Positions 58,029 to 59,054 of a stretch of 64,000 bases of DNA are shown here, one piece after another. The DNA lies in assembly GCF_054482595.1 (NCBI RefSeq), contig NZ_CM137008.1. The stretch is one strand, 5' to 3'. Made by a program: the position numbers and the translations under genes. The notes beneath the pieces were generated by a model that was given only the letters and a program-made list of their open reading frames with translations, ran no database searches and was not told the DNA's origin. Numbering within the stretch: position 1 is the first letter of the stretch; every line of letters starts with the position of its first letter.

Positions 58029-59054
58029 ATGGATCTGCGCCGTTTTATTACGCTTAAAACCGTGGTGGAAGAGGGTTCCTTTTTGCGAGCTTCGCAAAAA
58101 TTGTGCTGCACACAATCGACGGTGACTTTTCATATTCAGCAGCTTGAGCAGGAGTTCTCAGTACAGTTATTTGAGAAAATTGGTCGACGAATGTGCCTTA
58201 CCCGCGAAGGGAAAAAGCTGCTGCCGCACATCTATGAACTTACCAGAGTGATGGATACCCTTCGTGAGGCTGCCAAAAAGGAGTCGGATCCGGACGGGGA
58301 ACTACGCGTTGTTTCGGGCGAAACGTTGCTCTCTTACCGAATGCCGCAGGTGTTGCAGCGTTTTCGGCAACGCGCCCCAAAAGTGCGTTTATCGTTGCAG
58401 TCGCTGAACTGTTACGTGATCCGTGATGCGCTACTGAATGATGAGGCCGATGTTGGCGTCTTTTATCGTGTAGGGAATGATGATGCTCTGAATCGACGAG
58501 AGTTGGGTGAACAATCACTGGTGCTGGTGGCTTCACCGCAAATTGCAGATGTCGATTTTACTGAGCCGGGAAGACATAACGCCTGTAGCTTTATTATCAA
58601 CGAACCGCAATGTGTATTCCGGCAGATATTTGAGAGCACGCTGCGCCAGCGGCGGATCACGGTGGAAACTACCATTGAGCTGTTAAGCATTGAAAGTATC
58701 AAACGTTGTGTCGCGGCGAATATCGGTGTCAGTTACTTGCCCCGCTTTGCGGTGGAAAAAGAGCTTGAGAGCGGAGAATTAATTGAATTGCCTTTTGGCG
58801 AACAGTCGCAGCCATTACGGCAATGTGCGCACATCATGCTGGAAAAGCGGTTAGCCCGGCGATGCACATTTTTATTCAGTGTGTTGAAGAGTGTTTTTTG
58901 CCGGGATAAAAATAATGCCGGGCTTAAACCCGGCATTGAGATTACTCTTCTGTCGTTTGCGGTGGCACGCCCGTTCCGCTTGGTTTACGGCGCTTACCAA
59001 TATTTTTGGTATCGCGATGGCGTTTTTTCACCCGCGGCTTCTCTTTCTCTTTAG
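58029..59054 (+). CDS. yfiE: LysR-family transcriptional regulator YfiE; reading frame here runs to 59054 (341 codons), overlapping the 3' end of convergent srmB
   Basis: From MDLRRFITLKTVVEEGSFLRASQKL… (HTH); the ORF continues through the intergenic hairpin region; K-12 product recalled as about 293 aa. Confidence 0.8.
   Translation: MDLRRFITLKTVVEEGSFLRASQKLCCTQSTVTFHIQQLEQEFSVQLFEKIGRRMCLTREGKKLLPHIYELTRVMDTLREAAKKESDPDGELRVVSGETLLSYRMPQVLQRFRQRAPKVRLSLQSLNCYVIRDALLNDEADVGVFYRVGNDDALNRRELGEQSLVLVASPQIADVDFTEPGRHNACSFIINEPQCVFRQIFESTLRQRRITVETTIELLSIESIKRCVAANIGVSYLPRFAVEKELESGELIELPFGEQSQPLRQCAHIMLEKRLARRCTFLFSVLKSVFCRDKNNAGLKPGIEITLLSFAVARPFRLVYGAYQYFWYRDGVFSPAASLSL

What the first reader, a model, noticed from the sequence alone, without database searches (positions are those of the whole stretch)
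58029..59054. yfiE reading frame runs about 48 codons beyond the expected end and overlaps convergent srmB by 113 bp
From the MDLRRF start the frame stays open to 59054, passing through a hairpin (GCCGGGCTTAAACCCGGC, 58914-58935) that looks like a shared terminator, and overlapping the srmB 3' end (58942-59054). I recall K-12 YfiE as about 293 aa, which would end near 58910 around a T/A homopolymer (GTGTTTTTTGCCGGGATAAAAATAA). A single-base difference there would explain the extension.
Basis: partly seen in the sequence, partly recalled or inferred. Interest (0 to 1): 0.3.

Follow-up and report, generated by a model that had tools for sequence, protein, structure and literature searches.

The report
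Frameshifted yfiE regulator pseudogene
One missing base near the end of the E. coli regulator gene yfiE shifts its reading frame, so the gene appears to run on into its neighbour srmB; this is an ordinary strain-lineage pseudogene that NCBI's annotation already flags.

Summary
From ATG 58029 the frame is open to the stop at 59052-59054 (341 aa, 48 more than the 293-aa YfiE), passes through the hairpin at 58914-58937, and overlaps convergent srmB (58942-60276, minus strand) by 113 bp. An A is missing between 58811 and 58812 (CAG[A]CC, codon 262), which is not a homopolymer. The T6 and A5 tracts at 58894-58912 match intact alleles. Strain YZMc3-1 is identical over 1,626 bases apart from that A and encodes an intact 293-aa YfiE. 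The deleted allele is identical in 12 of 5,426 complete E. coli genomes from unrelated labs and hosts. These 12 are also the closest relatives over 24 kb, so the change is real and inherited. PGAP marks yfiE 'frameshifted' in the three carriers I checked. The shift replaces the last 32 residues, a conserved strand and C-terminal helix of the effector-binding domain, with 80 unrelated residues that hit no family. The long extension is a by-product: that frame happens to lack stops (7% of shuffles reach the same length). The likely result is loss of a local regulator proposed to control the adjacent exporter gene eamB. Low interest; already known.

The parts
58029..59054 (+). Extended open reading frame of frameshifted yfiE (341 codons plus stop)
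   Evidence: identical to protein P0001, seen on 156 contigs
58029..58909 (+). yfiE pseudogene as delimited by PGAP in identical records (881 nt against 882 nt when intact)
   Evidence: CDS flagged 'p', note 'frameshifted' in XH990, Santai and APEC37
58811..58812 (+). Junction of the 1-bp deletion: an A is missing between these two bases (codon 262, ACC), context CAG|CC, not a homopolymer
   Evidence: YZMc3-1 becomes identical to the window once this single A is removed
58812..59051 (+). 80 out-of-frame codons that replace the native 32-residue C-terminus
   Evidence: tail sequences; no Pfam family even at E<=10
58907..58909 (+). Native yfiE stop codon TAA, now out of frame
   Evidence: frame offset 2 has its stop at 58907; intact CDS ends here
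58894..58912 (+).
   Evidence: all columns identical to YZMc3-1 and strain 135
58914..58937 (-). GC-rich hairpin. It looks like an intrinsic terminator for srmB (followed by ATTTTTAT on the minus strand); there is no U-tract on the plus strand
   Evidence: terminator-like call on the minus strand only; fold z-scores -3.6 on plus, -4.6 on minus
58942..60276 (-). srmB (DEAD-box RNA helicase), intact; its last 37 codons plus stop are overlapped antisense by the extended ORF
   Evidence: (WP_000219193.1)
57339..57926 (-). eamB (cysteine/O-acetylserine exporter), divergent neighbour and proposed YfiE target; intact
   Evidence: (WP_021557097.1); PMC8464067 Table 2

Best explanation
This is a lineage-specific loss-of-function allele of yfiE, which encodes a LysR-type transcriptional regulator. 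Shown: a single A was lost from codon 262 (ACC) in the ancestor of one closely related group of E. coli strains. From that point the ribosome reads the +1 frame, which by composition has no stop codon for 80 codons. That stretch covers the rest of yfiE, the 32-bp intergenic spacer with the srmB terminator hairpin, and 37 codons antisense to the lysine/arginine-rich tail of srmB. The long ORF and the 113-bp overlap are therefore passive results of the frameshift and not a designed gene overlap. Inferred: any product keeps the winged-helix DNA-binding domain, the linker helix and most of the effector-binding domain. It lacks that domain's last beta-strand (262-270) and C-terminal helix (277-290), which are conserved and confidently modelled, so it is probably misfolded or inactive. 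If the yfiE transcript ends at or near the hairpin, the shifted frame never meets a stop codon. The message would then be a non-stop mRNA and its product would be tagged by tmRNA and degraded. The expected result is loss of YfiE control over the divergent exporter gene eamB and over yfiE itself.
For: The deletion is located exactly: searches show YZMc3-1 identical across 1,626 nt except for the A. There is no compensating indel. Twelve of 5,426 complete genomes carry the identical allele. Those 12 are the 12 best matches over 24 kb (99.9-100%), and intact YZMc3-1 comes next at 99.8%, which fits a single event in one clade. PGAP calls the gene 'frameshifted' in the three carriers checked. The Pfam LysR_substrate match shrinks from profile positions 3-206 to 3-191 and drops from 153 to 140 bits. 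The lost tail is conserved in 70 orthologues: H270 is invariant, and I263, A265, C267, A268, S276, P277, A278, M279, F282 and C285 are at least 90% conserved. The AlphaFold model (pLDDT 89.3) places strand 262-270 and helix 277-290 in the lost segment, with block pLDDT 88-93, and the fold matches full-length LTTRs. The new tail hits no family. The open run is within chance expectation. Other independent 1-bp deletions in E. coli and one in Salmonella run into the same stop-free frame. YfiE binds the yfiE/eamB region in ChIP-exo (PMC8464067).
Against: No expression or phenotype data exist for this allele. The first 261 residues, including the whole DNA-binding domain, are intact, so some DNA binding could remain. 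Whether the yfiE transcript stops at the hairpin is unknown: the plus strand has no U-tract and the scan called a terminator only on the minus strand, so the non-stop-mRNA step is conjecture. The carrier clade is too shallow to test for relaxed selection on the gene.
Confidence: 0.88

Rival explanations
1. Sequencing or assembly artefact: a miscounted homopolymer near 58894-58912 creates a false frameshift.
For: Frameshifts in the T6 run do occur on single short contigs in public read assemblies (P0011, P0014), which shows that this kind of error or variant exists at this locus.
Against: The homopolymers are unchanged here. The real deletion sits in CAG[A]CC, which is not a repeat. The identical allele is in 12 complete genomes from China, Japan, Russia and elsewhere, from human, duck, chicken and pig sources, and the exact product is on 156 contigs. 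Carriers form one clade over 24 kb.
Confidence: 0.02
2. The truncated or extended protein keeps partial function. With an intact DNA-binding domain and linker helix it could still dimerise and occupy the yfiE/eamB operator without responding to an effector, acting as a constitutive repressor or a blind regulator.
For: HTH_1 scores the same in both forms (62.2 against 62.6 bits). Residues 1-261 are identical to the intact allele. From my own knowledge of the family: LTTR dimerisation uses the linker helix, which is retained.
Against: The lost strand and helix are conserved, ordered parts of the effector-binding domain. Replacing them with 80 unrelated, fairly hydrophobic residues is likely to destabilise the domain. 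If the mRNA is non-stop, the protein would be degraded.
Confidence: 0.08
3. The extension is a selected, functional new C-terminus or overlapping gene, meaning the frame antisense to the srmB 3' end is kept open on purpose.
For: The same frame is open in Salmonella too, where a separate frameshift allele (P0029, 33 member sequences) reads even further into antisense srmB.
Against: The open run is within chance (7% of shuffles). It is explained by purine-rich second codon positions in the SrmB tail (68% against 50% gene-wide). The tail has no family match. About 99.8% of E. coli genomes end yfiE at the native stop. Conservation of the tail across species is forced by srmB on the other strand.
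Confidence: 0.02

Closest known systems
RefSeq/PGAP annotation of yfiE as a 'frameshifted' pseudogene in strains XH990 (BW242_RS08620), O157:H16 Santai (CH99_RS15050) and APEC37 (QRM68_RS13730)
   Same: 100% identical sequence over 58029-59054; same 881-nt pseudogene span ending at the native TAA.
   Different: Nothing differs. PGAP delimits the pseudogene by homology, while a naive ORF reading (and the gene callers behind P0001, 156 contigs) reports the 341-aa product as an ordinary 'LysR family transcriptional regulator'.
Intact YfiE of E. coli K-12 (b2577, 293 aa) and the sister allele WP_021557096.1 of strain YZMc3-1
   Same: Same locus and synteny (eamB, yfiE, srmB). Residues 1-261 are identical to YZMc3-1, and that allele is 285/293 identical to K-12.
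   Different: The window lacks one A in codon 262, loses the native 32-residue tail and gains 80 unrelated residues. K-12 also has about 177 bp of REP/BIME sequence between yfiE and srmB that this strain lacks.
LysR-type transcriptional regulators with solved full-length structures (ACIAD0746 8sbf, CcmR 5y2v, OxyR 4x6g, LysG 6xtv)
   Same: The model of the intact allele has the same overall fold (Foldseek E 1e-25, TM up to 0.76) and the sequences match across residues 1-284.
   Different: The window's product ends its homology at residue 261, before the last strand and helix that all these structures align to.
Other yfiE disruption alleles: P0012/P0013 (T lost in the TTTT run), P0011/P0014 (T6 run), P0009 (same A, different allele), Salmonella Muenchen P0029, IS21-family insertion in strain E700025
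   Same: All are disruptions of the same non-essential regulator. The 1-bp deletions all enter the same stop-free frame and share the ...[20 protein letters not shown]... tail.
   Different: They are independent events at other positions or on other allele backgrounds, and most are singletons on short contigs. The window's allele is the only one found fixed in a set of complete genomes.

Membership tests
LysR-type transcriptional regulator (LTTR), YfiE orthologue | N-terminal winged helix-turn-helix domain (Pfam HTH_1, PF00126) | tested here: met
   residues 3-62, 62.2 bits against a cutoff of 26.6
LysR-type transcriptional regulator (LTTR), YfiE orthologue | Complete C-terminal effector-binding domain (Pfam LysR_substrate, PF03466), including the final strand and helix | tested here: not met
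   the match ends at profile position 191 of 209, against 206 in the intact allele; true homology ends at residue 261, so strand 262-270 and helix 277-290 are missing
LysR-type transcriptional regulator (LTTR), YfiE orthologue | Orthology to K-12 yfiE by sequence and synteny (eamB divergent upstream, srmB convergent downstream) | tested here: met
   the sister allele is 285/293 identical to K-12, and the gene order is the same in 5,425 of 5,426 genomes
LysR-type transcriptional regulator (LTTR), YfiE orthologue | Full-length LTTR three-dimensional fold | tested here: met
   for the intact sister allele only (pLDDT 89.3; Foldseek E 1e-25); the frameshifted product was not modelled
Frameshift pseudogene | Indel that is not a multiple of 3 relative to intact orthologues, with no compensation downstream | tested here: met
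   a single A is deleted, and all other bases match the intact allele through 59354
Frameshift pseudogene | The lesion is real (reproduced in independent assemblies) and not a read error | tested here: met
   12 complete genomes, 156 contigs, non-homopolymer context. Raw reads were not inspected
Frameshift pseudogene | Loss of conserved, structurally required residues | tested here: met
Frameshift pseudogene | Loss of biological function | not testable with these tools
   Needs eamB expression or YfiE protein measurements in carrier against repaired strains
Programmed frameshift or functional C-terminal extension | The alternative frame is needed to make the conserved product, or the extension is a conserved domain | tested here: not met
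   Intact alleles need no shift. The tail has no family hit. The open run is within chance
Intrinsic terminator shared by convergent genes | GC-rich hairpin followed by a U-tract on the strand being terminated | tested here: inconclusive
   met on the minus strand (srmB), not met on the plus strand (yfiE); the hairpin is stable on both strands. No transcript 3'-end data

The most novel reading that the evidence does not exclude
Translation now runs through the srmB terminator hairpin and into antisense srmB. Ribosomes following RNA polymerase could suppress hairpin formation and Rho access on the yfiE transcript, which would raise antisense transcription across the srmB 3' end. The frameshift would then affect the helicase gene as well as abolishing YfiE. 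Alternatively, the repeated independent hits on yfiE (frameshifts in E. coli and Salmonella, an IS21-family insertion) could reflect selection for losing this regulator of cysteine/O-acetylserine export, and not mere neutral decay.
Probability: 0.05. Interest if true: 0.35.

Novelty: already known. Interest (0 to 1): 0.07.

Why it matters
It matters little beyond annotation hygiene. The 341-aa product sits in public protein databases under the plain name 'LysR family transcriptional regulator' (P0001, 156 contigs), so pipelines that trust ORF callers will treat a broken gene as intact and report a spurious 113-bp gene overlap. Biologically, strains of this lineage probably lack YfiE. YfiE is a poorly characterised regulator that ChIP-exo links to the cysteine/O-acetylserine exporter eamB (PMC8464067), and a CRISPRi screen reports changes in more than 300 genes when it is knocked down (bioRxiv 10.64898/2025.12.20.695731). 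These strains, with YZMc3-1 as a near-isogenic intact comparator, are therefore natural material for studying YfiE.

Tried and rejected
1. The homopolymer hypothesis: I aligned 58700-58960 with intact alleles, and the T6 and A5 tracts are unchanged. Rejected.
2. Read-error hypothesis: rejected on recurrence across independent complete genomes and the non-repeat context.
3. Recurrent hot-spot at CAGACC: the same A is missing on a different allele in GCA_974490325.1, but no complete genome carries that version. It stays an unverified singleton, and I did not build on it.
4. Function for the new tail: no Pfam match even at E<=10.
5. Non-random openness of the frame: the shuffle test gives 7%. Rejected as a signal.
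6. Naming the carrier lineage (sequence type): a literature search on six strain names found no typing information. Left undetermined.
7. A sigma-70 promoter scan of 57850-59150 found nothing, so it says nothing about yfiE or eamB promoters.

Full report
**Observation.** The window around 58029-59054 was read directly and its ORFs listed. The frame that begins MDLRRF at ATG 58029 has no stop until 59052-59054, which gives 341 amino acids. The ORF tool reports the same frame from an upstream ATG at 57984 as 356 aa. srmB occupies 58942-60276 on the minus strand, so the two frames overlap by 113 bp.

**What caused it.** A megablast of 57900-59200 against 5,426 complete E. coli genomes found the locus in 5,425. 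Most matches span 1,302 bases against my 1,301, which means one base is missing here. Strain 135 and a K-12 derivative have intact 882-nt genes. Alignment places the gap at TCGCAG-CCATT against TCGCAGACCATT. A script confirmed that strain YZMc3-1 becomes identical to the window over 58029-59054 once a single A at offset 783 is removed, and that 300 bases on each side are also identical. The deletion therefore lies between window 58811 and 58812, in codon 262 (ACC, Thr). The context, CAG[A]CC, is not a homopolymer. The first 261 residues are unchanged. The native 32-residue tail TITAMCAHHAGKAVSPAMHIFIQCVEECFLPG is replaced by 80 unrelated residues, and the native stop TAA at 58907-58909 is now out of frame.

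**Real or artefact.** A 61-mer spanning the deletion matches exactly in 12 complete genomes: XH990, O157:H16 Santai, THO-010, TUM18780, TUM18530, 88COLEC, SM107, APEC37, AHM21C2872I, W619, DETEC-C31 and GF66.1. They come from human, duck, chicken, pig and environmental sources, and from several laboratories. All 12 are 100% identical across the whole finding range, and the next hit is intact YZMc3-1 at 99.9%. Over 24 kb (window 40000-64000) the same 12 genomes are the 12 best hits (SM107 100.0%, the others 99.9%), again followed by YZMc3-1 at 99.8%. This pattern fits a single mutational event inherited within one closely related lineage. Santai and APEC37 also carry the PGAP 'frameshifted' flag. 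The exact 341-aa product is in the public protein collection as P0001, seen on 156 contigs and named simply 'LysR family transcriptional regulator'.

**What is lost.**
- Pfam finds HTH_1 at residues 3-62 in both forms. LysR_substrate covers 87-288 (profile 3-206 of 209, 153 bits) in the intact allele but ends at profile position 191 (140 bits) in the window's product.
- In an alignment of 70 orthologues from Enterobacterales and Aeromonas, the lost segment is among the best conserved parts. H270 is invariant, and I263, A265, C267, A268, S276, P277, A278, M279, F282 and C285 are at least 90% conserved.
- An AlphaFold2 model of the intact allele built on that alignment (mean pLDDT 89.3) ends with strand 262-270 and helix 277-290, with block pLDDT 88-93. 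The frameshift removes exactly these two elements.
- The model matches full-length LysR-type regulators in the PDB (Foldseek E 1e-25, TM up to 0.76), and sequence matches to those structures run to residues 283-287.
- The new 80-residue tail hits no Pfam family even at E<=10.

**Why the ORF runs so far.** After the shift, the frame stays open for 80 codons. In 2,000 dinucleotide-preserving shuffles of the downstream sequence the median is 21 codons and 7% reach 80 or more. The same plus-strand frame has open runs of 37, 37, 50, 150 and 58 codons across the rest of antisense srmB. In this frame a stop requires a pyrimidine at the second position of an srmB codon. The Lys/Arg/Glu-rich SrmB tail has 68% purines there, against 50% gene-wide. 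The extension and the overlap are therefore by-products of composition. In line with this, other independent 1-bp deletions fall into the same frame and share the same tail: P0012/P0013 (a T lost from the TTTT run about 8 codons upstream), P0011 and P0014 (a T lost from the T6 run, on single short contigs), and a Salmonella Muenchen allele, P0029, with 33 member sequences.

**The hairpin.** The consensus scan calls it terminator-like only on the minus strand, where ATTTTTAT follows it. This makes it the srmB terminator. It folds stably on both strands (z -3.6 and -4.6), but the plus strand has no U-tract. Whether yfiE transcripts end there is not known.

**Mechanism.**
- Shown: a 1-bp deletion, a frame change at codon 262, loss of a conserved strand and helix, and inheritance within one clade.
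- Inferred: the effector-binding domain cannot complete its fold, so the regulator is inactive or unstable. If transcripts end near the hairpin, the shifted frame has no stop codon and the product would be handled by tmRNA rescue (established biology of non-stop mRNAs; not tested here).
- Literature: ChIP-exo in K-12 found four YfiE sites, including the yfiE/eamB region, and proposed control of the cysteine/O-acetylserine exporter (PMC8464067). A CRISPRi preprint reports more than 300 genes changing on yfiE knock-down (10.64898/2025.12.20.695731).
- Expected consequence: loss of that control. eamB itself is intact in carriers.

**Rivals.** A sequencing artefact is excluded by recurrence across assemblies and by the sequence context. 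A partly functional protein that binds DNA but no longer senses its effector cannot be excluded (about 8%). A selected extension or overlapping gene is very unlikely, given the chance test, the absence of any domain and the rarity of the allele.

**Comparison and novelty.** This is the known gene yfiE (b2577) carrying a frameshift that RefSeq already annotates in identical genomes. It is an ordinary pseudogene with low interest. The practical lesson is that the extended product circulates in protein databases as if it were a normal regulator.

**Not determined.** The sequence type of the carrier lineage was not found. It is also open whether the same-site deletion on a different allele in GCA_974490325.1 is real, since no complete genome has it.

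Noticed in passing
window 58909-58942; L003 1311-1520: K-12 derivatives carry about 177 extra bases between yfiE and srmB that this strain lacks. The insert contains REP-like palindromes (gccggatgcggcgtgaacgccttatccggcctac; gtaggcctgataagcgtagcgcatcaggc). It is flanked by two diverged copies of the terminator hairpin (aatgtcgggattaaacccggcatt ... ataccaggcttaaacctggcatt), as if a BIME had inserted with duplication of the hairpin.
   Followed up: partly
L008 4011-5499 (strain VCSW8); corresponds to window ~58937: About 450 complete genomes break the alignment at the hairpin. In VCSW8 the gap holds an IS110-family IS621 transposase gene between yfiE and srmB, so the yfiE-srmB spacer is a recurrent insertion site.
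   Followed up: partly
L009 1-3422 (strain E700025); corresponds to window ~58489: An IS21-family element (istA/istB, ISSso4-like) splits yfiE into two annotated partial pseudogenes. This is an independent inactivation of the same regulator.
   Followed up: no
L007 2212-2432 (GCA_974490325.1): The very same A (CAG[A]CC) is missing on a different yfiE allele, with that allele's own SNPs 7 bases upstream and 20 bases downstream. None of the 5,426 complete genomes has this version. It is either an independent recurrence or an error in that assembly.
   Followed up: partly
proteins P0029 and P0035 (Salmonella enterica): A Salmonella Muenchen yfiE allele (379 aa as called, 33 member sequences) is frameshifted in the last few codons and also reads antisense into srmB; intact Salmonella YfiE is 299 aa.
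   Followed up: no
proteins P0016 and P0021 (E. coli): Two yfiE alleles carry in-frame tandem duplications: DADVGVFYRVGND twice (306 aa) and RFRQRAPKV twice (302 aa).
   Followed up: no
window 57984-58028: An in-frame upstream ATG adds 15 codons (MFLHSKFDIFDRFGV) that some gene callers include (P0002, P0014). Salmonella has a similar in-frame upstream stretch (MFFNSEFEIFDRLVV, P0029). The annotated start MDLRRF fits the usual LTTR N-terminus (HTH_1 from residue 3).
   Followed up: no
window 58002-58017: The eamB-yfiE intergenic region contains TTCGATATTTTCGATA. This is a direct repeat of TTCGATA and also fits the T-N11-A pattern of LysR-type binding sites (TCGATATTTTCGA, 58003-58015). It may be a YfiE operator. 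This was seen by eye only and not tested.
   Followed up: no
window 58886-58950: An outer stem GAAGAGTG / TACTCTTC encloses the terminator hairpin in the predicted fold. It arises because both convergent genes end in Glu-Glu codons (yfiE ...VEEC..., srmB ...TTEE*). This is probably coincidence.
   Followed up: no
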